A stretch of DNA of 64,000 bases from Minisyncoccia bacterium (GTDB lineage Bacteria > Patescibacteriota > Minisyncoccia > Phycocordibacterales > UBA2100), in contig JBAQUX010000025.1 in assembly GCA_049297775.1 (NCBI GenBank), positions 122,835-186,834 on the forward strand, read 5' to 3'. Every line of letters begins with the position of its first letter. Positions within the stretch are counted from its first letter, which is position 1. Under the pieces are notes generated by a model. That model did no database searches. It was not told the origin of the DNA and saw only the letters and a list, made by a program, of their open reading frames with translations. Of the stretch, positions 5,490 to 63,586 are shown in pieces. Both the position numbers and the translations under genes were made by a program.

Positions 5490-5491
5490 AC

Positions 5492-6895: not shown

Positions 6896-6898
6896 ACG

Positions 6899-7846: not shown

Positions 7847-7849
7847 ACA

Positions 7850-8365
7850 TTATATGTGAAGGTATGCATCAACCCCTTTTTCTTTTAGTGAATCGATTTT
7901 TGCGCATACCGCGTCATGCATGTCAGTTCGATACTTTTTTAACGCATCACGAACATGCACATCTGAAACACCAAGGATTTGTGCGGCGAGTATGCCAGCA
8001 TTCTTTGCACCGTTAATGGCGACAGTAGCAACAGGAACCCCTGGTGGCATTTGTACAATTGAGTGCAATGAATCTACTCCTGACAGGCTTTTGGTTTGTA
8101 TGGGTACCCCGATAACTGGAAGATGCGTGAGCGACGCGGTCATTCCAGGTAGATGCGCTGCGCCACCTGCACCGGCTATAATTACTGAAAGCCCCTTTTC
8201 TTCCGCCTGTGTTGCATATGTAAACATGCGCTCGGGTGTCCTATGTGCTGAGACGATAGTAATTTCGTATGGAACACCAAGCACATCAAGCACATCTGCA
8301 GCTTCTTTCATCACAGATAAATCTGAATCTGAACCCATTATTATGCCAATGCGTGGTGAACTCAT
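7850..8365 (-). CDS. purE: N5-carboxyaminoimidazole ribonucleotide mutase
   Basis: [11 protein letters not shown]...[14 protein letters not shown] PurE signature. Confidence 0.9.
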
Positions 8366-8373
8366 AATTGTTA

Positions 8374-9501
8374 TTAAATATGTATTAATTTTCTTGCCAG
8401 CTCTGCTTTCTGTTGTACCTCGCTCAGTGTATCACCCACCACCGTCACATGCCCCATTTTACGCTCAATTTTAGTATCTGCTTTTCCATATATGTGCACT
8501 GATACATTTCCCAGTGCCTCAGCCTCTTCCACGCCAACGGGGTTTGCAGGGGCATTTCTATCACCCAGTATATTTACCATCACGGAAGCAGGGTGTTTTT
8601 GCTGGACGGAACCAAGTGGCAAGCCAGCAACTGCACGGATATGATTTTCAAATTGTGAGGTGTCACATCCTTCAATCGTCCAATGACCGGAATTGTGCAC
8701 CCGAGGCGCTATCTCATTTACTAATACTTTCCCATCATATAAAAACATTTCTACAGCAAATACACCGGCACCTGTAAACGCCGAGAGCACACGTTCAGCG
8801 ATATCATGCGCCTGCTTTGCGATATCTGCTGAAACCGGAGCTGGCACAAGGGTCATGTGACAAATATGATTTTGGTGAATTGTTTCAACGATTGGATACA
8901 CTGCTTTTTGACCATCCTTTGTCCTCACGGCAACAACAGCGAGCTCCTTTTCAAAGGGAATCATTTTTTCTGCGTAGAGAGCTCCGCTACCTAATGCAGC
9001 TATTGTCGTTTCGATAACTTCTGGAGAAGTAACTGTTCTATTTCCTCTACCGTCATATCCGCCACTTCTTGCCTTGAGCACGTACGGGTATCCAAATATT
9101 TCACCTGCACGTAACGCATCTTCCTTAGATGCAATCTGCATAAAGTCACCTACTGGAATACCAGCATTCTGCAGTAGTTGCTTTTGCGTAAGTTTATCTT
9201 TAATGATTAGCAATGTATCTGGGTTTGGATGTACTTCAAATCCTGATGTGACGAGCTCTTGAAGTGCGGGTAGATTTGCAGACTCTATTTCAAACGTCAT
9301 GACGTCACACTGCTTCGCAAGTTCAGTTACCGGTGCATGCTCTGTAAAATTACCCACAACCGCGACATCTGCCACCTGGCCCGCCGGACCACGTGCTGAA
9401 GGGTCTAGGACAACTGTGCGCACGCCTAGAGTACGCGCAGCATCTGCGAGCATTCTTCCCAACTGTCCTCCTCCAACTATACCGACAGTTTTTTCTTTCA
9501 T
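8374..9501 (-). CDS. purK: N5-CAIR synthetase (ATP-grasp)
   Basis: [13 protein letters not shown]... ATP-grasp N-terminus, 375 aa, adjacent to purE. Confidence 0.85.
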
Positions 9502-9502
9502 A

Positions 9503-10309
9503 TTAAAAATTTTTCTTGCAGTATTCGACTGCGTTTCTAAAGACTTTTACACCCGGTCCTTCGGTTGGAATTTTCTTATTCTTTCTTTTGAGTGCATCCT
9601 TCTTGTTTGTCCAGTTAGGAAGTTGAGTAAAAAAGAGTGCACGTTCCGGATGAGGCATAAGTCCAAAAACTCTGCCACCATGCGCTGTTACACCGGCTAT
9701 ATTTTTTAACGCGCCATTCGGGTTTGCAGGTAATGAATACTCATGACACATTTCTCCGCTTACATACTCTCCGGCAATACCACCACTCTTCTTAAGTGCC
9801 TGCATACCTTTTGTATCAATCATATATCTCCCTTCGCCGTGCGCAATCGGTAGCGCGACAGTACCAAGACCCATTGTCCATGGACTCGTGTTTGAGAATG
9901 CGACATCTACCCATCTCGTAAGATAGCGAGCGCCTGTATTGTGTAGCAACACTCCTGGAACCAGACCAAGCGCCGAGATTATTTGGAACCCATTACAAAT
10001 ACCAATAACAAGACCACCTCGTGCGATAAAAGCATCAAGCTCATTTTTTAGCCCTGAAGATACAATGTGTGCATACGCTTTTCCAGAACCCATATGATCA
10101 CCAAATGAGAACCCACCAGGAAACGCGATGATGTGTACCTTTTCTAAAAGTGATGGGTTAGCACAGACATCATTAATATGTCGCACCGTAGCCTCTGCAC
10201 CTACATAGTTAAACGCGTATGCCGTCTCTTCCTCACAGTTAATCCCAAACCCACAGAGCACGAGCACCTGAGGTTTCTTTATTTTTCTACGTGTGCGTGT
10301 ATCTTTCAT
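9503..10309 (-). CDS. purQ: FGAM synthase glutamine-amidotransferase subunit
   Basis: VLVLCGFGINCEEE...GGFSFGD...ICNGFQ...HPER class-I GATase motifs. Start taken as MKDTRTRRK at 10309, directly after the purL stop; the track ORF extends upstream in an overlap frame. Confidence 0.85.
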   Translation of the reverse strand: MKDTRTRRKIKKPQVLVLCGFGINCEEETAYAFNYVGAEATVRHINDVCANPSLLEKVHIIAFPGGFSFGDHMGSGKAYAHIVSSGLKNELDAFIARGGLVIGICNGFQIISALGLVPGVLLHNTGARYLTRWVDVAFSNTSPWTMGLGTVALPIAHGEGRYMIDTKGMQALKKSGGIAGEYVSGEMCHEYSLPANPNGALKNIAGVTAHGGRVFGLMPHPERALFFTQLPNWTNKKDALKRKNKKIPTEGPGVKVFRNAVEYCKKNF

Positions 10310-10310
10310 A

Positions 10311-13274
10311 TTAAAAATCCTTAAAAGTAGAACGGTATGCACGCTCAAGTGATTGCAAAGGAATACGAACAGCTTTTGTAAGACCATTAATCGAGAGTTC
10401 TTTTTTTGTCTGCGTTAGACCAATGTTCGTAAAAGATACACCTTTCATTATTCTTTCAAAATTCTTCACGTTCTTCTTGGGCACGCTTACCAATATTCTA
10501 CCTTGGCTCTCTGCAAAGAATTTTTGTATATCGGTCGTTGCGGAACCGGCAATTTTTTTAATATCTACTCGTGCTCCAAGATTGCCAGCAATGAGCATTT
10601 TTGACAGCGCGACTGCAAAACCTCCCCGAGACACACTGATGGACGATGCGAGTAATTCTTTTGAGATTACCTTTTCGAGAGCACGATACACTCGCACATT
10701 CTTTTTTGCATCAACCTGTGGGACCGCTGTTGCATAGGATACATCTGCATCTGCACTGATCATTCCAAGGTATTCACTTCCTTGGAGTTCATCGTGTGTT
10801 TCTCCAATAAGGTAGAGTACATCTCCTGAAGATTTAGCATCAATTGAAACTGCTCGAGTAACATCTGAAACTACCCCAATAGATGAAATAAGCATGGTTG
10901 GCAATGCAGAAACTGCAACTGGTGAGCCTGTGGCGTCAAACCCTTTAAAATCATTGAACATACTGTCTTTGCCTGAGATGAACGGCGTACCGTAGGCAAC
11001 CGCATAGTCATGACAACCTCGAATTGTTTCTTTAAGTTGATAGAGGCGCTCTGGATCATTCCCTTTGCACCAACAACAGTTATCAAGTATCGCCAATGTA
11101 TCCAAAGTACCCCCTGCGGCTACAATGCCACGAATTGCCGTATCAACTACCGCGCCCGCCATTTTATACGCGTCATGTTCTGTGTATGTCGGTAAGCACC
11201 CTGAAGAAAGGGCGACGCCTTTCTTTGAAGTTAACAAGGGCTTGGTAATCGTAGTATCAGCATTTACTTGCCCCTTGCCTTGTAAGGGTTTAAGTACTGA
11301 ACCGCCTTGCACTTCTGCATCGTATTGTCTCGCGATATATGCAGTACTTGCGATTGATGGTCGTGCCAAGATGTTGAGCAATTCTTTAGAAAGATTTTTT
11401 GTTGTAGGTACAGGACGTCGCATCTCTGTCCGCTGTGGAATACTAGAGATTTGATGTTTCGCTTTTCTTCCGTTATGAAGAAACTCAAGTGACATGTCAA
11501 CGATTTTTTCCCCGTGAGAAGTAACAACACATCGTCCACTATTGGTAAACGTTCCGATGACTGCAGATTCTACCCCGCGAGAAATGAGTAGCTTTTGCAA
11601 TTCCTCCAATGATTCCTTTGGGACTGCGAGAGTCATGCGCTCTTGAGATTCTGATATCCATATCTGCCATGCTGAGAGTCCTGGATATTTCAGCAGAACT
11701 GCATCAAGATCTACTTCACAGCCATCACATTCTTTTGCCATTTCAGCAACCGAACATGAAATACCACCTGCACCATTGTCGGTAATACTCGTAAACAACC
11801 CTCTGTCACGGGCCTCCTTCACAAGAGTGTCACTCATCTTTTTTTGGGTTATCGGGTCTCCAATTTGCACTGCGGTAGCTGGACTGTGAGAATCGAGGGT
11901 TACCGAAGAAAACGTTGCGCCGTGGATACCATCTTGTCCGACTCGCCCACCACACACGAGAATATAGTCGCCCGGTCGCGCTTGTTTTTCATGAGCTAAT
12001 TTTTTGCCAATTTTTTTTGGTATCAAACCTACATTACCAACAAATACCAGAGGCTTACCCCGAAAACGCGGGTGCGTGAGGACAAATCCTTGTGGTGTTG
12101 GTATTCCTGAGCAGTTCCCGCCAACATTTACACCCTGCACAATACCATCAAGTATTCTTCGTGCCGAAAGAAGTGGTGATTGCAACTGTGAGTCTCTGAA
12201 AAACTTGCTTGTATCTCGGGGGTCAGCTACGCAATATCCATACAAGTTAATGACCGGTTTTGCACCCAAGCCAAAACCCATAGTGTCTCTATTCACACCC
12301 ACAATGCCGGTAATTGCACCCCCAAACGGGTCGAGTGCTGACGGACTATTATGCGTCTCAACTTTATGAGTTACGAGGTAATCTTTATCAAAAACAATAG
12401 CTCCTGCGTTATCAGAAAATACAGACACGCAAAAATCTTTTTTTCCCTTCGCGCTACGTATCTTTTTTGTAGCTCCCTTTATGTACGTTCTGTACAGACC
12501 ATCTACTAAATCATCAAGTGGGTCCGAGAAAATAGTGTGCTTACAATGTTCGGACCATGTCTGGGCAATCGATTCAAGTTCAATATCAGTAGGGTTTCTC
12601 TCCTCTTTTTTAAAGTAGTCACGAATGGTATGGAGGCTTTCCATATCAAGTGCAAGCGGTCCGCGACGTGTGCCGTCATTGTTTTCTATACCCATTTTAC
12701 CAATCAATTGCAATTGCGTATCATCGATTGCAAGGTCAACGGTAGTTACTTTCGGGACAGCACCAAGCTGTACCTTTGGAACATATTTTTTTTCGTAGTG
12801 AGCATGCCATTCTTCAAACGATACAACTTGTCCACGCTCAATGAGAGGATTATGCATCGCGAGTGAAATTTTTTCTGCTTCATCTCGGGTTAGTTTTCCG
12901 GTGATGAAGTGGACTTGCGATGTATAGACAAGAGCATCATCATTCAGTGGCGTATCAATAAGCGTGCGCATGCTCTCACGTGCAGTTGCACCAACCGTGT
13001 CAGTAACACCAGGAAGAAACCCTATTTCAATAGCGTACGTGAATTTTTTTGGCGCAAGCGTATATGTAGACGAAACATTTTCTGAAGACGGCTCAGCAAG
13101 TAGTCGTTGAATGCGAGTAAGTGCTGTAGCGGATGGTTCAAAGTCGAGTGTGTAGGCATCGATAAGTTCAAGTGAAGAGATACCACTACCAACACCTGCA
13201 TTCCTCAGAAAATCCCTTTTTACTCGTGCGCGCGTGTCCGCATATTTTGGTGATACCTCAATGCGAATAGTCAT
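10311..13274 (-). CDS. purL: FGAM synthase large subunit with an N-terminal PurS-like extension (PurS-PurL fusion, 987 aa, no glutaminase domain)
   Basis: PurM-like repeat domains (SEHCKHTIF, GDYILVCGGRVGQDGIHGATFSS, ...) preceded by ~230 aa with a PurS-like beta-alpha-beta-beta-alpha-beta pattern; purQ is a separate gene. Confidence 0.85.
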   Translation of the reverse strand: MTIRIEVSPKYADTRARVKRDFLRNAGVGSGISSLELIDAYTLDFEPSATALTRIQRLLAEPSSENVSSTYTLAPKKFTYAIEIGFLPGVTDTVGATARESMRTLIDTPLNDDALVYTSQVHFITGKLTRDEAEKISLAMHNPLIERGQVVSFEEWHAHYEKKYVPKVQLGAVPKVTTVDLAIDDTQLQLIGKMGIENNDGTRRGPLALDMESLHTIRDYFKKEERNPTDIELESIAQTWSEHCKHTIFSDPLDDLVDGLYRTYIKGATKKIRSAKGKKDFCVSVFSDNAGAIVFDKDYLVTHKVETHNSPSALDPFGGAITGIVGVNRDTMGFGLGAKPVINLYGYCVADPRDTSKFFRDSQLQSPLLSARRILDGIVQGVNVGGNCSGIPTPQGFVLTHPRFRGKPLVFVGNVGLIPKKIGKKLAHEKQARPGDYILVCGGRVGQDGIHGATFSSVTLDSHSPATAVQIGDPITQKKMSDTLVKEARDRGLFTSITDNGAGGISCSVAEMAKECDGCEVDLDAVLLKYPGLSAWQIWISESQERMTLAVPKESLEELQKLLISRGVESAVIGTFTNSGRCVVTSHGEKIVDMSLEFLHNGRKAKHQISSIPQRTEMRRPVPTTKNLSKELLNILARPSIASTAYIARQYDAEVQGGSVLKPLQGKGQVNADTTITKPLLTSKKGVALSSGCLPTYTEHDAYKMAGAVVDTAIRGIVAAGGTLDTLAILDNCCWCKGNDPERLYQLKETIRGCHDYAVAYGTPFISGKDSMFNDFKGFDATGSPVAVSALPTMLISSIGVVSDVTRAVSIDAKSSGDVLYLIGETHDELQGSEYLGMISADADVSYATAVPQVDAKKNVRVYRALEKVISKELLASSISVSRGGFAVALSKMLIAGNLGARVDIKKIAGSATTDIQKFFAESQGRILVSVPKKNVKNFERIMKGVSFTNIGLTQTKKELSINGLTKAVRIPLQSLERAYRSTFKDF

Positions 13275-13303
13275 AGGGCAATGGTATCACTCTCCAAAAA
13301 TAA

Positions 13304-14110
13304 TTACCAGCGTGGCCACCAAAAATGTACTAGGCCGAGCAAAGACCTTCTTCTGCCGATTTTTGTACGTTTAATTGAGAGCGCTACTGCATGTGAACCG
13401 AGTGCATGCCCCACCTTTTCTGACAGTGTGCGCATGTAGGCCCCGCTTCCCGACACGACACGTATACGTACTATTGGAAATTGCATATCCGTATCCTTTA
13501 ACAATGCATGCCATTTGAGCAGAATTTCTTTTCTGCGAAAGTCGTTTCCGAGCACTTTAGTTGAAGCCGTTACCGTCGTAATAAGTGATATCTTTTTTTC
13601 TATATACTCCATAAGTTTTTCACTATGCACCGCATCTACGCCAAGATATTCAAGTTCGTGAATACGCGTATCTGTTTTAGGTATTTCAATTTCATGCAAC
13701 TTCCCTTCAAGTGCCCACACAAAGAGTGGCTTGCCATTTACTGGTTTTGAAGAGTACGGAGGAAACGGCCAAGGGAATCTCCCAATAAAGCCCTTCAGCA
13801 CTCTTTTTAGTTGCACAGTGGGTGGCAATTCTGGGATATCTTCGAGTGTTGCCATACCAAGAACATCAGCAGTGTCAGTGCGTACTCCAAGCAAAATTTC
13901 TACCTCATACTCCTTATCAAGATTTCTGTAGAACTCTACTTGCTTACACTCATCTCCCACCAAGACCAAAATTTTTCCTTCTGCCATAGGATCAAGTCGT
14001 CCCGCATATGCAAGCGGCACATCATGTAAAATGACATGGTCGAAACGAAAACGCTGCAATGCTTCCAACGGGGTTTCTCCAATGTTCTTATACACTACTC
14101 CTGTTTTCAT
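13304..14110 (-). CDS. truB: tRNA pseudouridine synthase, TruB family
   Basis: Motif AYAGRLDPMAEGKILVLVG matches the catalytic xGTLDPxAxGvL region; 268 aa. Confidence 0.65.
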   Translation of the reverse strand: MKTGVVYKNIGETPLEALQRFRFDHVILHDVPLAYAGRLDPMAEGKILVLVGDECKQVEFYRNLDKEYEVEILLGVRTDTADVLGMATLEDIPELPPTVQLKRVLKGFIGRFPWPFPPYSSKPVNGKPLFVWALEGKLHEIEIPKTDTRIHELEYLGVDAVHSEKLMEYIEKKISLITTVTASTKVLGNDFRRKEILLKWHALLKDTDMQFPIVRIRVVSGSGAYMRTLSEKVGHALGSHAVALSIKRTKIGRRRSLLGLVHFWWPRW

Positions 14111-14125
14111 TTTTTTAGTCTACCT

Positions 14126-14440
14126 TTATTTGCCAATTTTCGCGAGCGCATCAAAAGAGTCGCTTTTGTGAGTACGATTTCTTTTTTTGTGACCACATTT
14201 TTCGCAGGTGTTTACCAGTATCCACTCACCTTTTTCAATTTCTGCACCTGTCGGCTTCATCATCCCTCCACATTCAGACATTCTATCTCCTGGATAGACA
14301 TCTACGTGTTTACTCCATAGACATTTTGGGCAATGATTAGTATAGCCATCACCTTTCACTGCTGTTGCGCAGTGCTCGCACACAAAATCCTCCTTCATGC
14401 GAACAAATGTTTTAGGGGTGAGATTACTACTCATACTCAA
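14126..14440 (-). CDS. RNHCP-domain zinc-ribbon protein
   Basis: CEHC...YTNHCPKC...CEKCGH: eight cysteines including the diagnostic (R/T)NHCP motif. The start may be internal (MKEDFVCEHC) because the track ORF overlaps the guaA 3' end. Confidence 0.6.
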   Translation of the reverse strand: MSMSSNLTPKTFVRMKEDFVCEHCATAVKGDGYTNHCPKCLWSKHVDVYPGDRMSECGGMMKPTGAEIEKGEWILVNTCEKCGHKKRNRTHKSDSFDALAKIGK

Positions 14441-15956
14441 TCGTTGCTGGTGGCTTTTGTGTCACATCGTAGAGCACACGGTTAACCCCCCGCACTTTTC
14501 CGATAATTGCACTTGATATTTTCTCTAGTAACTCATGAGGCATTTTGTGCCAATCGGCAGTCATGCCATCTACAGAATCTACGGCGCGTAATGCAAGAAC
14601 ATATTCATAGGTTCGCGCATCACCCATGACACCTACCACTTTAAGAGGTAGAAGTGCCGCAAATGCTTGCCAAATTTTTTCGTACTCACCAAACTTCTTG
14701 AGCTCGTCGAGATACACCGCATCTGCTTCCTGAAGGATACGTACACGCTCAGGTGTTACTTCGCCAACAATACGAATCGCAAGTCCCGGTCCCGGAAACG
14801 GATGTCGATACACCAATTCTCTTGGTAGTCCGAGTGCCATGCCTACTTGGCGCACCTCATCTTTGTATAAATCCTTAAGTGGCTCAAGTACTTTGAGTTT
14901 CATTTTTTCTGGTAGCGCAAGGTTATGATGAGTTTTTATTTTTGACGCCGTTTTTGAAGGTGCCGCAGACTCAATACGGTCAGGATATATTGTTCCTTGC
15001 GCAAGATAGGTAATATTATATTTTGCCTTCATCTCTTCAACCTCTTTTTCAAAAATTTCTATAAATGCATGCCCGATAATCTTGCGCTTTTCCTCCGGGT
15101 CAGTAACGCCTTTTAAACGAGAAAGATACATCTCTCCCGCACTGACTACTTTCAATGTTTTAAATCCATTTTTCTTGAGATAACTCGCAACTTGAGCAAC
15201 CTCATCTTTTCGCAGAAGCCCGGTATCAACAAAAAGTCCATGCATGCGATTACCAATTGCTTCATGCAGTAACGTTGCAGCGACAAGCGAGTCAACACCG
15301 CCAGAAAGTGCAACGAGGACATGTTCCTTGCCTACTTCATTTCGTATATCATGTACGATAGATTTTGCGACAGAATTAATCTGCCAATTTTTTTTTGCTT
15401 TACAGATCGTACGTACGAAATTTTTAAAAATTTGCTCACCATATTCAGTATGCGAAACCTCTGGATGAAATTGTAATCCAAATATTTTTTGCTTTTCGTC
15501 GGCGTACACTGCGTGGGCACATGCTTTTGTAGACGCATTCGTCGTAAATCCATCTGGAAGTTTTGACACCTGATCACCGTGAGAGAACCACACAATCTGC
15601 TTTTTTGGCACTTTGGCGAGAAGTGCCGTTGCCTTTTTTGTAACGACAATTTCTTTCCCAAATTCATGGTGGATACCTTTTACAACGATACCTCCCAACA
15701 TATCAGCAATAAGCTGATGCCCATAACAAATACCGAGTACAGGGATACCAAGAGTGAGGAGTGCATCTTCAGCGCGTGGGCCACCTTCTATAACTGACGA
15801 GGGACCACCAGAAAAAATTATTCCTATTGCGCCCATTTCATGAACTTCTCGTGCCGTAATAGTATGCGGAACAATTTCTGCTTTCACTCCAAGCGCACGA
15901 ACTCGTCTTGCAATTAAATGCGCAAATTGACTACCGAAATTGAGTATAAGAATCAT
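14427..15956 (-). CDS. guaA: GMP synthase (glutamine-hydrolysing)
   Basis: N-terminal GATase (ILILNFGSQFAHLIARRV...CYGHQL), ATP-PPase SGGVDS motif, and C-terminal dimerisation domain ending ...PPATIEYE. Confidence 0.92.
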   Translation of the reverse strand: MILILNFGSQFAHLIARRVRALGVKAEIVPHTITAREVHEMGAIGIIFSGGPSSVIEGGPRAEDALLTLGIPVLGICYGHQLIADMLGGIVVKGIHHEFGKEIVVTKKATALLAKVPKKQIVWFSHGDQVSKLPDGFTTNASTKACAHAVYADEKQKIFGLQFHPEVSHTEYGEQIFKNFVRTICKAKKNWQINSVAKSIVHDIRNEVGKEHVLVALSGGVDSLVAATLLHEAIGNRMHGLFVDTGLLRKDEVAQVASYLKKNGFKTLKVVSAGEMYLSRLKGVTDPEEKRKIIGHAFIEIFEKEVEEMKAKYNITYLAQGTIYPDRIESAAPSKTASKIKTHHNLALPEKMKLKVLEPLKDLYKDEVRQVGMALGLPRELVYRHPFPGPGLAIRIVGEVTPERVRILQEADAVYLDELKKFGEYEKIWQAFAALLPLKVVGVMGDARTYEYVLALRAVDSVDGMTADWHKMPHELLEKISSAIIGKVRGVNRVLYDVTQKPPATIEYE

Positions 15957-57404: not shown

Positions 57405-57836
57405 CTACTGCTCGTACAATACAAAATGAGGAATCCTGTCGAGACCAATGTAGTTGAACATCTTGTAATTTGCACGACGCGCTGTAGGCGGTAGCTGGCG
57501 CATCTTGAGATGCCGTTTAGGAATAAATGGATAAAAATGAATTACCTGTCGTTCCTTCCCTTTTTCTTTCCAGGTAAAGTTGGCGATAAGTGCGGGGGTC
57601 ATGTACCCGGATTTCAAAACCTTTTCCATAATATCCCACCCAGCCCCGAAGATGACTGGCGTGGGCTTCTTGTTATTCGTCTTTACCTGCGCACGGAACG
57701 AACACCCGACGCACTGCACATCGTAGAGAGGGTAGTTCTTGGGGAGTCGCATAAGTCTCTTCCCACAGTTCGGACACGGCACGAGCGCAACTACCTGATC
57801 TTCACCTTTGTCGCCAGCATCTTGGTTTTTAGACAT
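57405..57836 (-). CDS. Zinc-ribbon protein with a possible PD-(D/E)xK-like nuclease core
   Basis: CPNCGKRL...CVGC four-Cys ribbon; an E...D...QVK spacing resembles a nuclease core. The assignment is speculative. Confidence 0.4.
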   Translation of the reverse strand: MSKNQDAGDKGEDQVVALVPCPNCGKRLMRLPKNYPLYDVQCVGCSFRAQVKTNNKKPTPVIFGAGWDIMEKVLKSGYMTPALIANFTWKEKGKERQVIHFYPFIPKRHLKMRQLPPTARRANYKMFNYIGLDRIPHFVLYEQ

Positions 57837-58277: not shown

Positions 58278-58454
58278 TTATAATCTACCGCACACTTAAA
58301 AAGACCCCATGGGTCCTTTTTAAGTTATGTTTATGTTTGCGTAATGTAGACATTGCTTGTATTGGGGTGCTCACTTGATACAATATTTAATATGAGCACA
58401 ACAGATTCAGAAATAGCACTTAATAATATTATTAAAAATTTTTCAGGTAATGGT

Positions 58455-59270
58455 ATGAATTCATTTAAAAAAATAATCCTTCTCGCCATTGCAGGCATAG
58501 TACTCTTTAACACATTTGGCATTATCCAAGCTGGCGATAGAGGCGTGAAGACACGTCTCGGAAAAATAGTTGGGATAGTTCAGCCAGGACCGTATTTTAA
58601 AATCCCTGTGCTCGAATCCATTTCAACAATGGACGTTCGTACGCGCACCATCAACTACGATAGAAATGGTAATGAAGGCGACGCAGCAGACACATCACAA
58701 ATTTTTGGCGCATCTAAAGACCTCCAAGATGTGAAGATAGGGGTTGTGGTTAACTATCACACAGACCCAGACAAAGTTACGGATATTTTTGCTCAGTACA
58801 GTTCTGTACAAAACTACGAAACAAATGTGCTCGAATCGATCGTCAGGAAGACAGTGAAATCTCTTTCCGCTTCCTACACAGCTGAAGAACTTGTAACAAA
58901 ACGAGCAGAGTTTAACGATAAGGTAACTGAAGACCTTACAGCTCAATTTTCTGAAAAATGGGCAATACTCGAAGCTGCCAACATAACCAATTTTGAATTT
59001 TCTGCAGATTTTACAAAAGCTATTGAAGCAAAAGTTACTGCGACACAAAACGCAGAAGCTGCACGAAATAAGCTCGAACAAGTAAAATTTGAAGCGCAAC
59101 AACAAATTGAAAGCGCAAAAGCCCAAGCCGAAGCGATACGTATACAAGCACAGGCTATTAATAGCCAAGGTGGTGCAGACTACGTAAACCTAAAAGCTGT
59201 AGAAAAGTGGGACGGTAAGTTACCAACTCAAATGATACCAGGATCTACTGTGCCGTTCTTACAACTATAA
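58455..59270 (+). CDS. SPFH/band-7 (prohibitin/HflC-like) membrane protein
   Basis: N-terminal TM, then the VQPGPYFKIPVLESISTMDVRTRTI SPFH core, then an Ala/Gln-rich coiled-coil tail. Start taken at MNSFKK. Confidence 0.8.
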   Translation: MNSFKKIILLAIAGIVLFNTFGIIQAGDRGVKTRLGKIVGIVQPGPYFKIPVLESISTMDVRTRTINYDRNGNEGDAADTSQIFGASKDLQDVKIGVVVNYHTDPDKVTDIFAQYSSVQNYETNVLESIVRKTVKSLSASYTAEELVTKRAEFNDKVTEDLTAQFSEKWAILEAANITNFEFSADFTKAIEAKVTATQNAEAARNKLEQVKFEAQQQIESAKAQAEAIRIQAQAINSQGGADYVNLKAVEKWDGKLPTQMIPGSTVPFLQL

Positions 59271-59401: not shown

Positions 59402-59653
59402 TTATTCTCGATGCGGACAACCTGGCCAGCAACACGGACGGCGCTTACCTTGCGTTATTTCAGCATGAAGTCGTGTAATGTGCTCTTTTCTCGTCTCTGG
59501 TTTTTTAAACGAGATTACCCAGCATATCCACTCGTTGCGACCAAGCGGTGTGAGACTATTCCATGCATTTGCTACCTTTTCAGAAGATACGAGAACTTTT
59601 CGCAGGTCGGCAGGTACGCGGTGCACAACACCAGAAGATAGTGTTTTTGTCAT
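59402..59653 (-). CDS. YdeI/OmpD-associated family protein
   Basis: ...EWICWVISFKKPETRKEHITRL...CWPGCPHRE matches the family core. Confidence 0.65.
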   Translation of the reverse strand: MTKTLSSGVVHRVPADLRKVLVSSEKVANAWNSLTPLGRNEWICWVISFKKPETRKEHITRLHAEITQGKRRPCCWPGCPHRE

Positions 59654-59675
59654 AGTGTCATTTTAGCATATTCGG

Positions 59676-59795
59676 GAATGAGTTCACGGCTTTGATTACA
59701 ACGCGCAACGTGCCTATGCACGTTACTTCGGGCGCAAAAAATGCTCCGCTTTTTTTGCTGACTGACTCAGTCTGGAACCTCACACCTTGAGACCT
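59676..59795. repeat. Direct repeat copy 1: ~58-nt hairpin-containing element plus ~35 nt resembling a degenerate tRNA-Gln 3' half
   Basis: 59703-59760 gcgcaacgtgcctatgcacgttacttcgggcgcaaaaaatgctccgctttttttgctg is near-identical to 63461-63516. The following cagtctggaacctcacaccttgagac parallels the tRNA sequence cagacttggaatcgaaccaagattgagag. Confidence 0.7.
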
Positions 59796-59933
59796 TGTAA
59801 GGGTTCTTCGGGTACTTTTAGTGTAGCAAATTGAGACGTCTCAGTCTGGTCTCAATAGACACGATAGACACTATAAAAAGAGCTTAGGGAGTGTCTTGTG
59901 AGACCGTTTAAGGGTATTTACAGCTTTGACAAC

Positions 59934-60464
59934 CTAGCCGTAATAAATGCACAAACTGCTCAAAATCGGGAACATTACTTGGTACAACTGCCAGAGGAAG
60001 ATCCCCACAAAGAGCGCAAATGGTACAAGAAAAAACCATGGGTTCTTCCCCTTGTTTACCTCCTTCATCCTCTTAGTTTGACTAGTCACTTCCTTATACA
60101 AAGATTTAAAGAAATCAAAACCTAGGTAAATGATACTGAACGTCAAAAGCGTCTTAAGAGCATCGTTACCAGATTGCGTGAGATTCGATGCGTCACAATA
60201 TGACTGTGCAAGAAAGATAATAAACGATAGACTAGCACCTACCAAGAAAAGGGACTTCATGACCGCATGTCCAGCAAAAGCCCAAGCAACCATAGCAAGG
60301 ACTACGAGTTCAATTAGAAGTATCGTCCATCCTATTGTTTGGAATGTATCTTTAAAAAAAGTCATTCCTACAAACACAAGTGCAGACAACACCAAAAAGA
60401 TACTAAACTGAATTAGCTTTTCTTTGCTGCTTGCAAGTTCTCTAATCATTTCTTTTATTTTCAT
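59934..60464 (-). CDS. Hypothetical membrane protein (4 TM), co-directional with and 20 nt downstream of the KAP NTPase gene
   Basis: 176-aa ORF with four hydrophobic helices. Confidence 0.55.
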   Translation of the reverse strand: MKIKEMIRELASSKEKLIQFSIFLVLSALVFVGMTFFKDTFQTIGWTILLIELVVLAMVAWAFAGHAVMKSLFLVGASLSFIIFLAQSYCDASNLTQSGNDALKTLLTFSIIYLGFDFFKSLYKEVTSQTKRMKEVNKGKNPWFFLVPFALFVGIFLWQLYQVMFPILSSLCIYYG

Positions 60465-60484
60465 AGACTAATACTATCGGGGAT

Positions 60485-63295
60485 TTACTCGTTGAATTCT
60501 TTAACTACGAGATCACCGAAATCTTTTGAGTTTTTAGAGACAAAGCTGGCTATCGCCTGCTTGTGTGGTTCAGACAAAGTTCTTACTTGTCTCAGTTTTT
60601 GTACAAACGCATCTACTTGGTCTGGCTGAACACCCAACCTAGAAATTGCGTCGATCCATTTAGTGAGCAAGTCTGTGTCGGAAAAAGCGCCAGCATTAAT
60701 CATTCTCAATACAATGTTCTTTAAGAAGTTTGGATCTCCCGAACGTTCAGCTGGAACACTGTACCCAACGTACTCTAAGAATGCGAGAGCTTCATTCTCA
60801 TTTACAACTAGGTTAGCAAAAATATCAGCCTTCTCCTCATCTGAAAGTTTTCGCTTTAGAGGTAACTTACTTAATAGATCGAGCGTTACTCTGCTTCTAA
60901 ACATTAAACCCGTTCGAGCATTCTCATCATTAGTAAGAAAATCCTTGCCCAGTGTCTGCAAAATAGTATCAGCAGTATTGGCATTTTCAATAATATAGCG
61001 ACGAATCCATGAGGCGGGCTCTTTGTTAATAGTCAAATTAACTTTTTGGAAAATCTTTACGCATAGAGCTTTTTCCTCAGCAGACTTATTAGCAGAGTAC
61101 CAAAAAGATATTGTTGAAGTGAATGCGTTTAGGATCGTTCCCACTCCGCCGTCACCGGAGGTTGGCGGACCTGATTTCTCAAGAAATTCTAAGCTTTGCT
61201 TTAAGACCTCAAGCCGAACATTGTCGACTTCGACAATGGGTTGCCACCGAAGTAAATAATCGAACAAGGTTAGGCCCACTGAATAGTACTCGCTCGTTGT
61301 TGGGCCAAGTGTAGTCAGTATCGATAAAATATCATCTAGGATATCCTTGCGGAATTTATCTGACTTCTCTGCATCAGGAAAAAGCTCATCCAGCCTGAGA
61401 TGTCTAATGAAATTCTTTTTTGCCTCGATTATTTCAATTCTTTTGTTCTTAAAATTATCCTTATTCTCGTCATCATGGACAATCTCAAAAAGTTTTCTGA
61501 CATTCTTTATCATATTTCTTTCAACAAGGGTATCTACTGCAATATTGCTTAGTATTACAACGAGATTTTGACTAAAATTCTTCTTATTAGCAGGTGACAC
61601 ACCGTCAAGACCTTTACTAAACATTTTCGATAGATCTATCCTATCGATTGCCGATTTGAATTTACCGCTTCCAGCATTTTTAAACGTGAGATGCACGACT
61701 TCTTGAAAATGTTTTAAATCTTCAGGTGTAATTATTTTATGGACTGTAATAAATATATTGAACAGTAAATTTTCATTCCGCATGTGTCGTCTACAGTAAT
61801 CAGCCATAAGTTGTCCAAGATTCGACAGCTTGTCAGCTGATTTAACAGTGTTATATATTTTTTCAGCATCCTGTTTTCGCCCCTCGATTAGAGAGAGCAC
61901 GAAGCTATTCCATTCTGGGACAGTCTTTTGTGCGTCACTTTGTCGTAATGAGAAATATATATCCTGAGCCTCGTCGTCATCAATATGTGAAGTGACTCGT
62001 AAAAATTCTTCTATTTTCTTTTTTTCTTCCTGTTCATCATCATGTAACTTCGAGACAATCTCACTAAGCTTGTCGCCAGTCCTTAGCACCCTATCCTCAA
62101 TTTTGCTATAAGATTTTGGCCATTTAACGCGTAGGACGAGTACCTTCGCAAGAAAGGCAACGTGTTCCTTTTTGATAATTTGCTCAATACCCCTTTCTTT
62201 TGCAAGTAGATACAAAGAAATAAGCGAATTAATGAACTGGATGATTTCTCGTGGATTGTTTCTAAACGCATAACTTAGAATGAACACCAGATCATAGTTA
62301 TCCTTAAATTCTGGAATTTGCGTCGTATTGAGTTTACGAACTATGAAATCATCGAGCTCTATGTTAAGAAATTTAGGGATCTGAATGGAGTGATTAAAAA
62401 ACTTCCTTAAATATTCCTCAGTATCAAAATTATCACCGTACTCCTTAAGGAGTTGGTCGTTGATTGCTTTGTTATCACAAGGGATTACAAAGACCGTTCT
62501 ATTATTCACATTTTTCCCATCAAGAGAGTAATCCTCGTCAGAAAGGAAAGTCTTGATATCACTCAAGAGATTTACTGCTTTTTCACTCGAAAGTCGATCA
62601 AGGTTGTCAATTATCACTAATAAATCGTTATTTTTTATTTCTGCAAGTGCTTTTACAAAGTGCTCCTCGAAACCCTCAGCTGAATCTGTTTTATCTATTA
62701 CTTTCTCTCCATTAACTTGTTTTATCGTATCCGAGATAAAAGTTAGGAGTATTCCAATTACTCCTAAGTCAATAACTCTCTTTGCAATGCCTATGTAATC
62801 CTCTGAAAGCAATAAGGGTAGGATGCTTTGTCTAAAAATTATAATAACTACTAGGGCAACAATGATTAAGAACACACTCCTAAACAGAAGGCTCCCAAAC
62901 GAAGCCTTTAGACTATCGAACCAGCTTAGATTAAAAGGAACCGATAATGATTGGTTAAGGGTTTCCTTATAGTTCAGTCCTAGATTTAGTTTCTGGTCGA
63001 GACTTATAAGAAATTGTCTACGGAATGAATCTCTTTCGTACTTCCAGGTATCAAAATATAGAACCTCGTATTTTTTCTCATTATTTAACCCATCTTCAAT
63101 AAGTTTACAAATCGTACTTTTACCCACTCCCCACTGACCATATATTCCAATATTAAATGGGCGCGGAGCTTTTCTTATTATTTCTATAACACTATTCGCT
63201 ATTTCTCCATGCCCAAAAATATCACTCTCTCCACTTTCGAGAGGTTTGTCTTCGAGAACTGTAAAATCTTGTTTGTGTGATTCTTTTTCTTCCAT
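60485..63295 (-). CDS. KAP-family P-loop NTPase (937-964 aa) with two TM helices inserted in the NTPase domain
   Basis: FNIGIYGQWGVGKSTICKLIE Walker A, YFDTWKYERD, an intra-domain hydrophobic pair (FRSVFLIIVALVVIIIF / VIGILLTFISD), then Walker B LLVIIDNLDR. Start taken at MEEKESHK; the longer track ORF to 63379 would translate through a tRNA-derived fragment. Confidence 0.8.
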   Translation of the reverse strand: MEEKESHKQDFTVLEDKPLESGESDIFGHGEIANSVIEIIRKAPRPFNIGIYGQWGVGKSTICKLIEDGLNNEKKYEVLYFDTWKYERDSFRRQFLISLDQKLNLGLNYKETLNQSLSVPFNLSWFDSLKASFGSLLFRSVFLIIVALVVIIIFRQSILPLLLSEDYIGIAKRVIDLGVIGILLTFISDTIKQVNGEKVIDKTDSAEGFEEHFVKALAEIKNNDLLVIIDNLDRLSSEKAVNLLSDIKTFLSDEDYSLDGKNVNNRTVFVIPCDNKAINDQLLKEYGDNFDTEEYLRKFFNHSIQIPKFLNIELDDFIVRKLNTTQIPEFKDNYDLVFILSYAFRNNPREIIQFINSLISLYLLAKERGIEQIIKKEHVAFLAKVLVLRVKWPKSYSKIEDRVLRTGDKLSEIVSKLHDDEQEEKKKIEEFLRVTSHIDDDEAQDIYFSLRQSDAQKTVPEWNSFVLSLIEGRKQDAEKIYNTVKSADKLSNLGQLMADYCRRHMRNENLLFNIFITVHKIITPEDLKHFQEVVHLTFKNAGSGKFKSAIDRIDLSKMFSKGLDGVSPANKKNFSQNLVVILSNIAVDTLVERNMIKNVRKLFEIVHDDENKDNFKNKRIEIIEAKKNFIRHLRLDELFPDAEKSDKFRKDILDDILSILTTLGPTTSEYYSVGLTLFDYLLRWQPIVEVDNVRLEVLKQSLEFLEKSGPPTSGDGGVGTILNAFTSTISFWYSANKSAEEKALCVKIFQKVNLTINKEPASWIRRYIIENANTADTILQTLGKDFLTNDENARTGLMFRSRVTLDLLSKLPLKRKLSDEEKADIFANLVVNENEALAFLEYVGYSVPAERSGDPNFLKNIVLRMINAGAFSDTDLLTKWIDAISRLGVQPDQVDAFVQKLRQVRTLSEPHKQAIASFVSKNSKDFGDLVVKEFNE

Positions 63296-63337
63296 AAATT
63301 TATACAGGCAAATACTCACGTATCTTAGCATATGGTG

Positions 63338-63358
63338 GCTGCCAGACTTGGAATCTTT
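63338..63358 (-). repeat. Exact 18-nt copy of the tRNA-Gln 3' end (gattccaagtctggcagc on the minus strand)
   Basis: Identical to the T-loop/acceptor 3' strand of the tRNA at 63516-63586; lies just upstream of the KAP NTPase gene. Confidence 0.7.
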
Positions 63359-63391
63359 TTGGTAAAAGTGTTGACTCACTTTTCCAAAAAC

Positions 63392-63418
63392 CGTACCTCG
63401 CGGTTTTTGCCTTGTGGA
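63392..63418. terminator. Hairpin with T-tract (bidirectional) between the tRNA-Gln repeat and the KAP gene
   Basis: ccAAAAACCGtacctcgCGGTTTTTgcc. Confidence 0.5.
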
Positions 63419-63442
63419 TTACCACAAACAAAAACATCGCTC

Positions 63443-63516
63443 CGGTCTTCGATTCACAAGGCGTAACGTGCCTATGCACGTTACTTCCGGCGCGAAAAAT
63501 GCTCCGCTTTTTTTGC
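63443..63516. repeat. Direct repeat copy 2, immediately 3' of tRNA-Gln
   Basis: See copy 1; carries the same aacgtgc-ctat-gcacgtt hairpin. Confidence 0.7.
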
Positions 63517-63586
63517 TGCCAGACTTGGAATCGAACCAAGATTGAGAGCTTCAAAGGCTCCTGTCCTACCTTTAGACGATCTGGCA
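63516..63586 (-). tRNA. tRNA-Gln (anticodon UUG), CCA not encoded
   Basis: Minus-strand fold done by hand: acceptor TGCCAGA/TCTGGCA (U1-A72 as in bacterial tRNA-Gln), D-stem GTCT/GGAC, anticodon stem GGAGC/GCTCT with loop CTTTGAA (anticodon TTG), T-stem CTTGG/CCAAG with loop TTCGATT, discriminator G. Confidence 0.8.

What the first reader, a model, noticed from the sequence alone, without database searches (positions are those of the whole stretch)
59676..63586. Integrase-less genomic islet at the 3' end of tRNA-Gln, flanked by ~100-nt direct repeats that include a degenerate tRNA 3' half
Read on the minus strand, the order is: intact tRNA-Gln(UUG) at 63586-63516; a 58-nt element with a 7-9-bp hairpin (aacgtgc-ctat-gcacgtt) at 63515-63461; a terminator-like hairpin; an exact 18-nt copy of the tRNA 3' end at 63358-63338; a KAP NTPase gene; a 4-TM protein gene; a cluster of gagacc-type short repeats; then a second copy of the 58-nt element at 59760-59703, itself preceded by ~35 nt (59795-59761) that align with the tRNA 3' half but have diverged. 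This is the classic signature of site-specific integration into the 3' end of a tRNA gene, with attL/attR-like duplication and later decay of the distal copy. No integrase, excisionase or transposase remains inside, so the element is probably fixed, or is a satellite mobilised in trans. The extra perfect 18-nt tRNA fragment suggests two successive or nested events at the same att site.
Basis: seen in the sequence. Interest (0 to 1): 0.72.

Follow-up and report, generated by a model that had tools for sequence, protein, structure and literature searches.

The report
Defence islet at a tRNA-Gln hotspot
A 3.5-kb stretch of foreign DNA carrying a likely anti-phage gene pair sits beside a glutamine tRNA gene in an uncultured Patescibacteria chromosome; it is bracketed by copies of the tRNA and of a structured non-coding tail that also follows tRNA genes in related bacteria, and while the islet is ordinary, the tail is unexplained.

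Summary
There is an intact tRNA-Gln(UUG), an exact 18-nt copy of its 3' end 177 nt downstream, a KAP NTPase gene with a 4-TM partner, and a second copy of the trailer 3.76 kb away. The cargo is compositionally foreign: GC 37.5% against 44.1±1.0%. No recombinase turned up among the 48 larger ORFs screened. KAP homologues occur in phage-like and defence contexts, and in one unrelated genome again directly after tRNA-Gln. "Integrase-less islet at a tRNA hotspot" is therefore supported, but no close relative exists, so no empty site could be tested.

Three corrections apply.
- The distal repeat holds a decayed full-length tRNA-Gln, not only a 3' half.
- Divergence jumps at the tRNA 3' end, from 64% to 94% identity, so one duplicated block that simply decayed cannot explain the repeats.
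- The "58-nt element" and the 18-nt fragment belong to one roughly 180-nt structured unit. It runs trailer hairpin, antisense of the tRNA 3' end split by a hairpin, two further stem-loops, then a copy of the tRNA 3' end.

This unit recurs after tRNA-Phe or tRNA-Gln in four other Patescibacteria contigs, sometimes in tandem, with the antisense matching the local tRNA. The islet is a new member of a known kind. The unit has no known counterpart and its function is unresolved.

The parts
63515..63586 (-). Intact tRNA-Gln(UUG). Its 3' end (63515-63532) is the reference copy of the 18-nt repeat.
   Evidence: ARAGORN; Rfam tRNA 60.7 bits.
63492..63514 (-). Module A: A-rich trailer with a weak hairpin. 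In L004-L006 and L010 this position holds a strong terminator-like hairpin.
63447..63491 (-). Module B: imperfect antisense of the tRNA-Gln 3' end (GCCGGAA ... GCCTTGTGAATCGAAG). It is split at the acceptor/T-stem boundary by the conserved 22-nt hairpin GTAACGTGCATAGGCACGTTAC (63463-63484).
   Evidence: Duplex with the cognate tRNA 3' end is -25.0 kcal/mol, against -9 to -13 for non-cognate tRNAs. Only 1 of 4000 random 29-mers does as well. The hairpin plus one flanking base on each side (24 nt) is identical in L004/L005/L006.
63395..63446 (-). Module C: stem-loop with the conserved motif GGAGCGATGT ... CCGCGAGGT, a 3-bp closing stem and a GGA/GA internal loop.
   Evidence: Regex hits only in the tRNA-linked units of five loci. 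Folds. Hand-curated pair table 65/65 paired, 9 of 12 pairs with 2 or more pair types (the alignment was fitted to the structure).
63359..63387 (-). Module D: hairpin TTGGAAAAGT-GAGTCAAC-ACTTTTACCAA. The loop resembles the GAGNNAAC(GAA) loops of L004/L005.
63338..63355 (-). Module E: exact 18-nt direct copy of tRNA positions about 57-74 (T-loop to 3' end). It can pair with module B to close the unit.
   Evidence: B:E duplex -20.2 kcal/mol. MFE of the unit alone closes on B:E.
60485..63331 (-). KAP-family P-loop NTPase: 936 aa from the ATG at 63295, or 948 aa from the ATG at 63331 as called at NCBI. Hydrophobic insert at about residues 128-192 and a C-terminal region of roughly 570 aa with no known domain.
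   Evidence: Pfam KAP_NTPase 2.2e-29. PADLOC QatA 4.9e-27, PDC-S20, PifA. Homologues. Hydropathy.
59934..60464 (-). 176-aa membrane protein (about 4 TM), a conserved partner of this KAP clade.
   Evidence: 31% identical and colinear with the 171-aa gene that follows the KAP in L010. A 176-aa gene also follows the KAP in the P0009 context. No Pfam, PADLOC or PHROG hit.
59829..59933 (-). Non-coding right end of the cargo: an F-like motif (GGTTGTC..N..CTTAAACGG, 59904-59934, overlapping the last base of the TM gene's stop codon), inverted repeats, the 12-nt palindrome TGAGACGTCTCA (59832-59843) and a TGAGACS heptamer cluster.
59757..59828 (-). Decayed full-length tRNA-Gln pseudogene: 49 of 77 alignment columns identical to the functional gene.
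   Evidence: Anchored alignment against random windows: full length 2/5000, 5' part 5/5000, 3' part 3/5000. Identity. Not called by ARAGORN or Rfam.
59688..59756 (-). Distal copy of modules A and B including the hairpin (A', B', hp'). It lacks C, D and E, and its antisense arms no longer match the adjacent pseudo-tRNA.
   Evidence: A through hp 49/52 identical, right of hp 15/19. Duplex with the pseudo-tRNA only -4.1 kcal/mol.
59402..59653 (-). YdeI/OmdA-like gene: the chromosomal flank and first gene beyond the repeats.
   Evidence: Pfam OmdA 7.5e-15. Same neighbourhood in L001-L003.

Best explanation
Region 59688-63586 is an accretion site for horizontally acquired DNA at the 3' side of tRNA-Gln(UUG) in a Patescibacteria (Minisyncoccia) chromosome.

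Shown:
- A 3.5-kb, compositionally foreign, two-gene cargo (a KAP NTPase with a membrane insert, plus a 4-TM partner) lies between two elements. On one side is the working tRNA with a roughly 180-nt structured non-coding unit. On the other is a decayed second copy of [tRNA-Gln + the first ~70 nt of that unit].
- No recombinase is present.

Inferred:
- The cargo is a defence-type module.
- It arrived on a phage-derived or similar integrative element. Entry was by recombination between an element-borne copy of the tRNA/trailer segment and the chromosomal one. This was either site-specific by a recombinase supplied in trans and since lost, or Campbell-type through the ~130-nt homology.
- The redundant tRNA copy then decayed and the mobility genes were deleted. 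What remains is a fixed, or at best trans-mobilisable (CIME-like), islet.
- The small structured unit bounded by the 18-nt tRNA repeats is a separate member of a family of tRNA-targeting miniature elements or ncRNA modules. That family recurs at tRNA-Phe and tRNA-Gln in other Patescibacteria.
- The exact order of events cannot be reconstructed from one genome.
For: Foreign composition: islet GC 0.375 against 0.441±0.010 for same-size windows (z=-6.4). Tetranucleotide distance 0.347 against a maximum of 0.202 elsewhere.

Cargo type and mobility:
- KAP_NTPase hits QatA, PDC-S20 and PifA.
- KAP NTPase proteins with TM helices and an uncharacterised C-terminal region were shown experimentally to block phage (PMC13552941).
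- The closest homologues sit next to terminase, ParB-methylase and GIY-YIG genes (L008 82% identical, L009 70%), next to R-M systems (L021, L033), or in a defence island.

Recurrent site: in L010 (a different genome with different flanks) a 56%-identical KAP and a homologous TM partner again follow tRNA-Gln(ttg) plus a unit of the same architecture. That island also has a low GC (~30% against 41-49%) and an S24 repressor-like gene.

Repeats.

No recombinase: none among the 48 larger ORFs of the window that were scanned.

tRNA linkage of the trailer: across 596 Gb of genomes and the metagenome collection, the hairpin core occurs only directly after tRNA genes (L004, L005, L006), apart from one chance coding hit.

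Serial insertion: L004 carries three, and L006 up to three, extra copies of the tRNA-Phe 3' end (some decayed). These arrays differ between otherwise similar loci. This matches the serial-integration picture described for tRNA islands in streamlined genomes (bioRxiv 10.1101/2020.12.28.424599) and the Islander definition of tRNA islands (PMC4383910 abstract).
Against: - No empty site, circular junction or cognate integrase was found. No close relative is in the collections, and six viral-contig scans were negative or gave only chance hits.
- The distal copy is a whole pseudo-tRNA. The identity step at the tRNA 3' end (64% against 94%, p=4e-5) is not predicted by simple duplication and decay. 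It needs constraint or gene conversion on the trailer, or an already diverged tRNA-like arm in the donor.
- L010 shows no distal repeat within 9.7 kb.
- The 18-nt fragment lies between the unit and the cargo in both the window and L010, and it pairs with the antisense module. It may therefore be a functional part of an RNA rather than an att scar.
Confidence: 0.6

Rival explanations
1. Classic nested integrase events. Two successive tyrosine-integrase integrations with crossover in the T-loop or 3' half of tRNA-Gln each brought a replacement 3' end and displaced the old one. The 18-nt copy and the distal degenerate 3' half would then be the displaced fragments.
For: - Direct copies start at the same tRNA position (after GGTTC of the T-loop) in the window (GATTCC...) and in L004-L006 (GAGCCC...).
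- Tandem copies in L004 and L006 look like serial integrations (compare).
- The last 23 nt of the distal tRNA-like stretch match 16/23 in register.
Against: - Similarity continues through the 5' half of the tRNA (5/5000 random windows), which a 3'-half crossover does not produce.
- The displaced fragment is far more diverged than the trailer that follows it.
- No integrase was found in the window or in any of the five loci.
- No attP-bearing viral contig was found.
Confidence: 0.25
2. The unit is a resident structured RNA, not an att scar. The ~180-nt unit (A-E) would be an RNA gene or 3' extension made on the tRNA strand. Its closing helix is formed by the antisense module and the 3'-end copy. 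The repeats exist because the RNA needs them, and the cargo entered by an unrelated route.
For: - MFE folds of the unit alone close on B:E in all five loci.
- In L010, B and E have diverged from the tRNA yet still pair with each other, with G.U pairs.
- Stems of module C covary (GTGAC/GTCAC, GTGGC/GCCAC, GTTGC/GCAAC; closing stems ACC/GGT, GGC/GCC, GAC/GTC).
- G.U pairs are tolerated only on the tRNA-sense strand.
- The folding z-score of tRNA plus unit is -6.5.
Against: - E is truncated or deleted in L005 and in the first L006 copy, while the rest of the unit is kept.
- A strong terminator-like hairpin separates the tRNA from B in L004-L006.
- No Rfam family matches.
- Only five or six sequences are available, and the pair table comes from an alignment fitted by hand.
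- Tandem arrays and module shuffling look like mobile DNA.
Confidence: 0.2
3. Local tandem duplication. An ancestral pair of tandem tRNA-Gln genes, each with its trailer, was split by later insertion of the KAP/TM cassette, and the second gene decayed.
For: - The distal copy spans the whole tRNA and starts at its 5' end.
- There is no similarity upstream of the two copies.
Against: - It does not explain the 64% against 94% identity step.
- It does not explain the 18-nt fragment, or the same unit-plus-KAP arrangement after tRNA-Gln in the unrelated L010, which has no second tRNA copy.
Confidence: 0.1
4. The 58-nt element is an ordinary dispersed intergenic repeat or terminator (REP/MITE-like) that happens to flank the cargo.
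For: It is palindromic and A/T-flanked. A weak terminator-like site is called on the + strand at 59730-59746.
Against: - There are only two copies in 64 kb.
- The 20-nt hairpin core gave 2 loci in 596 Gb of species-representative genomes and 2 in the metagenome collection. Three of these 4 lie immediately 3' of a tRNA gene and the fourth is a coding-region chance hit.
Confidence: 0.03

Closest known systems
tRNA-integrated genomic islands (Islander-type definition: an integrase splits a tDNA, the island restores it, and the displaced fragment marks the far end; PMC4383910)
   Same: There is an intact tRNA at one end, direct repeats of its 3' part, foreign composition and accessory (defence) cargo.
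   Different: There is no integrase. The far repeat is a whole decayed tRNA plus about 70 nt of trailer, not just the displaced 3' fragment. Divergence is discontinuous at the tRNA end.
Cis-mobilisable elements (CIMEs) and other integrase-less remnants flanked by att sites (reviewed in PMC5704250; catalogued in ICEberg 2.0, PMC6323972). Recalled from knowledge; these papers appeared but their text was not read.
   Same: The cargo is flanked by att-like repeats and lacks recombination and transfer genes, so it would be mobilisable only with help in trans.
   Different: No cognate autonomous element or integrase has been identified, and mobility is untested.
Tycheposon-type tRNA islands in streamlined genomes (bioRxiv 10.1101/2020.12.28.424599)
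   Same: Repeated integration at one tRNA pushes older elements inward and leaves partial tRNAs and degenerate remnants. The genome is small and has few other mobile elements.
   Different: Tycheposons carry a tyrosine recombinase and replication genes, and none is seen here. The remnants here include an antisense tRNA segment and conserved stem-loops that are not described for tycheposons.
tRNA-dependent lysogeny (PMC10865867)
   Same: This is a precedent for an incoming element carrying a complete tRNA gene of the same isotype while the resident copy is inactivated. That would account for one working and one dead full-length tRNA-Gln.
   Different: That system has a phage integrase and a ~10-bp core inside the host tRNA. 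Here no phage genes remain and the repeat extends beyond the tRNA.
KAP P-loop NTPase defence proteins (EF_KAP in PMC13552941; PifA of the F plasmid; QatA of the Qat system)
   Same: There is a KAP domain with a membrane insert followed by a long uncharacterised C-terminal region. It occurs in defence islands and prophages.
   Different: Sequence similarity is limited to the NTPase domain. The QatBCD partners are absent. This clade instead has a ~175-aa 4-TM partner in three contexts. Function is untested.
Folded single-strand attachment sites (integron attC; CTXphi attP(+)). Recalled from knowledge, a resemblance only.
   Same: A sense and an antisense copy of the target, separated by a loop, can fold into a duplex that mimics the target. 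A protruding hairpin resembles the extrahelical features of attC. The units lack an integrase and occur in tandem like cassettes.
   Different: There is no IntI/Xer link, no R/L box consensus and no evidence of single-stranded intermediates. The target is a tRNA gene.

Membership tests
tRNA-integrated genomic island (integrase type) | Intact tRNA/tmRNA gene at one boundary | tested here: met
   tRNA-Gln(ttg) at 63515-63586.
tRNA-integrated genomic island (integrase type) | Displaced 3' fragment of the same tRNA as a direct repeat at the other boundary | tested here: inconclusive
   An exact 18-nt fragment lies at 63338-63355, but on the tRNA side of the cargo. The far boundary has a degenerate full-length copy (16/23 in the 3' part; whole-gene anchored alignment 2/5000 random windows) rather than a clean fragment.
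tRNA-integrated genomic island (integrase type) | Integrase gene inside the island | tested here: not met
   The islet holds only the KAP and the TM ORF. No recombinase family was found among the 48 larger ORFs of the window that were scanned.
tRNA-integrated genomic island (integrase type) | Atypical composition or accessory cargo | tested here: met
   GC z=-6.4 and tetranucleotide distance outside the range of all other windows. Defence-type KAP.
tRNA-integrated genomic island (integrase type) | Empty site in related genomes, or an excised circle | not testable with these tools
   The nearest homologue of the flanking Band_7 gene is 77% identical and not syntenic. Collection scans and contig look-ups were exhausted.
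CIME (cis-mobilisable element) | Flanked by att sites of a known ICE/IME/phage integrase and lacking its own mobility genes | tested here: inconclusive
   It lacks mobility genes (met). The repeats are att-like, but no cognate integrase or autonomous relative was found.
Qat defence system (QatABCD) | QatA KAP ATPase together with QatB, QatC (QueC-like) and QatD (TatD-like) | tested here: not met
   There is a QatA-model hit on the KAP (4.9e-27; best stretch residues 25-87), and the only neighbour is a TM protein with no PADLOC hit.
KAP family P-loop NTPase (Pfam PF07693) | KAP P-loop domain above the gathering score, with a membrane insertion in the domain | tested here: met
   103 bits against a cut-off of 20, residues 31-363. 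Hydrophobic segments at about 128-192.
Dispersed intergenic repeat (REP/MITE-like) | Many copies at unrelated intergenic loci | tested here: not met
   Two copies in the window. The genome and metagenome scans gave 4 loci in all: 3 directly 3' of a tRNA gene and 1 chance coding hit. The complete source genome was not available.
Known RNA families (Rfam 15) | Match to any covariance model over the unit | tested here: not met
   Only tRNA matches, at gathering threshold and at E<=1, in the window, L004-L006 and L010.
Folded single-strand att site (attC / CTX attP type) | Hairpin formed by sense and antisense copies of the target with extrahelical features, recombined by IntI or XerCD | not tested
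   The hairpin geometry is present. The recombinase, strand specificity and single-strand intermediates cannot be addressed with sequence tools.

The most novel reading that the evidence does not exclude
The ~180-nt unit may be a previously undescribed class of miniature, protein-less element (or its RNA) that is addressed to a particular tRNA gene by its own sequence. A bipartite antisense of the tRNA acceptor/T-arm flanks a conserved hairpin handle, and a sense copy of the same tRNA end sits in the unit. Together these would act either as a folded single-strand attachment site that mimics the target, or as a guide for a recombinase supplied in trans. If so, tRNA-Gln and tRNA-Phe genes of Patescibacteria become programmable landing pads where defence cargo such as the KAP/TM pair accumulates.
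Probability: 0.15. Interest if true: 0.85.

Novelty: new variant of a known kind. Interest (0 to 1): 0.5.

Why it matters
Patescibacteria have tiny genomes, few recognisable mobile elements and almost no genetics, so how they acquire defence genes is largely unknown. This locus shows a defence module parked at a tRNA hotspot without any recombinase. It also reveals a conserved structured tRNA-linked unit whose antisense arm tracks the identity of the neighbouring tRNA across lineages. If that unit is an attachment or guide structure, it would explain integrase-less gene gain in these bacteria and might be retargetable. If it is only a scar, the locus is one more decayed tRNA island.

Tried and rejected
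- Empty-site search. The ydeI-like protein is found only on contigs of the same strain (L001-L003). Band_7 homologues are at most 77% identical and lie in unrelated, partly phage-like contexts.
- attP or autonomous relatives in IMG/VR. The hairpin core gave 0 hits. The tRNA-Gln 3' end gave 2 chance hits. The tRNA-Phe 3' end gave 0. The D/E junction and the B/C junction gave only GC-rich coding chance hits. The KAP protein gave none.
- INPHARED phages. Only the tRNA part of the unit matches, and there is one weak KAP hit.
- Rfam. Nothing but tRNA, apart from sub-threshold matches (miRNA precursors over the long L004 hairpin, operon leaders, SAM-II), all far below their gathering scores.
- A distal repeat in L010. 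None was found.
- Automatic RNAalifold on module C failed because MAFFT could not align the variable hairpins. I replaced it with a hand-curated pair table, which is fitted to the structure.
- Ideas rejected on the sequence:
  - Casposon or DDE transposon: no terminal inverted repeats at the unit ends (read).
  - Retroviral-type primer-binding site: the antisense matches the gene's trailer, not CCA.
  - IS110 bridge RNA or TnpB omega-RNA: no such gene is present, and both antisense halves are colinear on one strand.
  - Group II intron domain V, hammerhead and K-turn consensus sequences do not fit.
- The tRNA-Arg gene in L004 has no comparable antisense module (a single control only).

Full report
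**1. What is there**

Read on the minus strand, the region has the following order.
- tRNA-Gln(UUG), 63586-63515.
- A 177-nt non-coding stretch.
- An exact 18-nt copy of the tRNA 3' end, 63355-63338.
- A KAP-family NTPase gene, 63295/63331-60485 (Pfam 2e-29).
- A 176-aa gene for a membrane protein with about 4 TM segments, 60464-59934.
- About 105 nt of non-coding DNA rich in TGAGACS heptamers. Five of the window's 17 copies lie here, together with a 12-nt palindrome.
- A tRNA-like stretch, 59828-59757.
- A second copy of the first ~70 nt of the tRNA trailer, 59756-59688.
- A ydeI/OmdA-like gene.

The trailer occurs only twice in the window. The only coordinate correction is the 18-mer, which is at 63338-63355.

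**2. The cargo is foreign, and there is no recombinase**

The 3.5 kb between the 18-mer and the tRNA-like stretch has 37.5% GC. Same-size windows elsewhere have 44.1±1.0% (minimum 41.6%). Its tetranucleotide distance from the rest of the window (0.347) exceeds that of every other window (maximum 0.202).

The rest of the window is ordinary chromosome. It includes a purine-synthesis operon, guaA, the F-type ATP synthase genes, bipA and a two-component system. No integrase, transposase or recombinase family appears among the 48 larger ORFs scanned. NCBI names the identical proteins as coming from a Minisyncoccia (Patescibacteria) MAG. Locus L001 (GCA_049296875.1) is identical over the region.

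**3. The cargo type and its mobility**

The KAP protein matches the PADLOC models QatA, PDC-S20 and PifA over its NTPase domain. It has a hydrophobic insert and a C-terminal region of about 570 aa with no known domain. Proteins with this layout were recently shown to protect against phage in a Walker-B-dependent way (PMC13552941).

Homologues are abundant in Patescibacteria and occur in changing neighbourhoods.
- Next to terminase, ParB-methylase and GIY-YIG genes (L008, 82% identical; L009, 70%).
- Behind a type ISP restriction enzyme (L021).
- Inside a multi-system defence island, followed by a 176-aa gene.
- Beside a DpnII system (L033).
- Beside a ribosomal protein operon (L020).

In L010 (GCA_027423275.1) the flanking genes are unrelated to those of the window. 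There, a 56%-identical KAP and a homologous 171-aa TM protein (31% identity, colinear) again lie just downstream of tRNA-Gln(ttg). An S24 repressor-like gene precedes them, and the island has ~30% GC in a 41-49% background.

I conclude that KAP/TM is a mobile, defence-type two-gene module, and that tRNA-Gln is a recurrent landing site for elements that carry it. The defence function itself is an inference.

**4. The repeats are more complicated than attL/attR plus decay**

First, the distal tRNA-like stretch is not just a 3' half. An alignment anchored at the trailer covers the whole 72-nt gene. Among 5,000 random windows, 2 score as well for the full length, 5 for the 5' two-thirds alone and 3 for the last 24 nt alone. 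Neither ARAGORN nor Rfam recognises it, so it is a dead gene.

Second, identity changes abruptly at the tRNA 3' end.
- Within the tRNA, 49 of 77 columns are identical (64%).
- From the first trailer base to the end of the hairpin, 49 of 52 are identical (94%).
- To the right of the hairpin, 15 of 19 are identical, after which similarity stops.
- Fisher p=4e-5.

A single duplicated block that decayed neutrally cannot give this pattern. Three explanations remain open: the trailer is constrained or homogenised by gene conversion; the exchange took place at or near the tRNA end or the hairpin with a partner whose tRNA-like arm was already diverged; or the copies differ in age. A precedent for 'one live and one dead full-length tRNA' is tRNA-dependent lysogeny, in which the incoming phage brings a complete tRNA gene (PMC10865867).

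**5. The trailer belongs to a conserved, tRNA-linked structured unit**

I scanned 596 Gb of species-representative genomes and the metagenome collection for the 20-nt hairpin core. This returned three real loci (L004, L005 and L006, the first two labelled Paceibacterota and Saccharibacteria) and one chance coding hit. In all three real loci the hairpin lies directly after a tRNA-Phe(GAA) gene.

Reading those loci, the window and L010 side by side shows one architecture.
- A: a trailer hairpin, terminator-like in four of the five loci.
- B: an antisense copy of the tRNA's own 3' end (T-loop to a few bases past the discriminator), interrupted at the acceptor/T-stem boundary by a hairpin. Together with one flanking base on each side, the hairpin is the identical 24-mer AGTAACGTGCATAGGCACGTTACG in the window and the three Phe loci. 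In L010 a different hairpin sits at the same place.
- C: a stem-loop carrying GGARCGATGT ... CGAG.
- D: a further hairpin, with a GAGNNAAC-type loop in the window, L004 and L005.
- E: a direct copy of the tRNA from the T-loop (after GGTTC) to the 3' end.

B pairs best with its own tRNA. The window gives -25.0 kcal/mol against -9 to -13 for the other loci's tRNAs. L004 gives -51.5 and L006 gives -46.5. L010 is the exception: its B scores -23.1 kcal/mol with its own tRNA but -24.8 with L006's G-rich tRNA end, so specificity is not shown there. An acceptor-stem difference between L004 and L006 (CCCCTCAGCA vs CCCCCCAGCA) is mirrored in B (TGCTGAGGG vs TGCTGGGGG). Only 1 of 4,000 random 29-mers (window) and 4 of 4,000 random 28-mers (L010) pair as well.

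Folded without the tRNA, the unit closes on a B:E helix in all five loci. The stems of C covary. In a hand-curated table all 65 cells pair and 9 of 12 pairs show two or more pair types. That alignment was fitted to the structure, and automatic alignment failed. Several G.U pairs would be A.C mismatches on the other strand, which hints at a structure on the tRNA-sense strand. No Rfam family matches.

**6. Signs that the units are, or were, mobile**
- L004 has three further copies of the tRNA-Phe 3' end in 630 nt of non-coding DNA. Each is preceded by the same ...TGCGCC junction.
- L006 has up to three (two partly decayed or deleted) and L005 has one truncated copy. The tRNA and its upstream gene are nevertheless conserved among the three loci.
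- Only the tRNA-proximal unit keeps the long palindrome A+B.
- L005 has an ~85-nt insertion inside its unit. That insertion carries a motif (GGTTGTC...CTTRAACGG) also found elsewhere in L004 and right after the TM gene in the window.
- The third unit of L006, in a tRNA-Phe array, carries the window-type module C (AAACCGCGAGGT is identical).

This matches what has been described for tRNA islands in other streamlined genomes. There, repeated integration at one tRNA pushes older elements inward and leaves partial tRNAs and remnants (bioRxiv 10.1101/2020.12.28.424599). What has not been described there is the antisense-plus-hairpin module.

**7. Most likely history and mechanism**

Shown:
- Foreign cargo.
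- tRNA-derived repeats of three different degrees of conservation: 100% for the 18-mer, ~92-94% for the trailer and 64% for the pseudo-tRNA.
- No recombinase.
- A tRNA-linked unit family.

Inferred:
- tRNA-Gln is a hotspot where elements have been added more than once.
- The KAP/TM pair is what remains of a phage-derived or similar integrative element. It entered by recombination between its own tRNA/trailer copy and the chromosomal one.
- The redundant tRNA decayed.
- The small unit next to the tRNA is a separate, more recent or functionally maintained member of the unit family.

The islet is now fixed, or movable only with a recombinase supplied in trans (CIME-like). I put this at about 0.6. 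The exact order of events and the type of recombination are open.

**8. What I could not do**

No close relative of this genome is in the collections, so there is no empty-site test. Six scans of viral contigs found no attP-bearing or KAP-bearing relative. The unit family therefore rests on five loci.

**9. Verdict**

As an islet this is a new member of a well-known kind and of moderate interest. The structured, tRNA-matched unit in the repeats has no counterpart that I could find, and it is the part worth following up.

Noticed in passing
window 4368-15956: There is a run of de novo purine-synthesis genes plus guaA in a Patescibacteria chromosome: AIR-synthase-related genes, purB, purC, purE, purK, and FGAM synthase subunits including a 987-aa purL-like gene. 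These organisms are usually described as lacking nucleotide synthesis.
   Followed up: no
window 57405-57836 (-): A solitary DpnI-like methyl-directed restriction endonuclease gene (Pfam DpnI 1.2e-11; PADLOC mREase_II). Its GC3 is unusually high at 0.57, against 0.31-0.43 for the other genes measured.
   Followed up: partly
window 58392-59270 (+); L014-L017: The Band_7/prohibitin gene next to ydeI has low GC (0.40). Its ~70%-identical homologues sit inside phage-like contigs with DNA polymerase B, Thy1 and PD-(D/E)XK genes. The segment between the DpnI-like gene and ydeI may therefore be an older acquired region.
   Followed up: partly
window 59788-59905: A cluster of five TGAGACS heptamers in both orientations, a perfect 12-nt palindrome TGAGACGTCTCA (59832-59843) and a 10-nt direct repeat CCAGACTGAG (59766-59775 and 59840-59849). 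These could be protein-binding sites at the right end of the cargo.
   Followed up: partly
L004 3276-3900 (DALYES010000020.1): About 630 nt of non-coding DNA after tRNA-Phe holds three extra copies of the tRNA 3' end (TGCGCCGAGCCCGCCCCTCA) and a perfect 62-nt palindrome that includes the acceptor 3' strand. Rfam sees the palindrome only as miRNA-like hairpins.
   Followed up: partly
L005 about 6895-6980 (CAZDUC010000010.1): An insertion of about 85 nt (a hairpin plus the GGTTGTC...CTTGAACGG motif) lies inside the unit, flanked by GAAA on both sides. It looks like a still smaller mobile module.
   Followed up: no
L002 and L003 (Logan contigs SRR28011841, SRR28011690): Two independent assemblies of the same strain break inside or just left of the pseudo-tRNA, at window positions ~59797 and ~59880. 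No 31-mer repeat there is obvious. Possible causes are low coverage or population heterogeneity at the islet's right end.
   Followed up: no
window 63296-63337 and 59654-59687: A shared 12-mer ATATGCTAARAT precedes both the KAP gene and the ydeI gene. TATAAAT or TAAAAT boxes lie only 2-6 nt before the ATGs, suggesting leaderless or very short-leader mRNAs. The 12-mer is within chance for the region.
   Followed up: no
L004 1108-1182: tRNA-Arg(cct) in the same contig encodes its CCA end and has no antisense module downstream, unlike the tRNA-Phe 2 kb away.
   Followed up: partly
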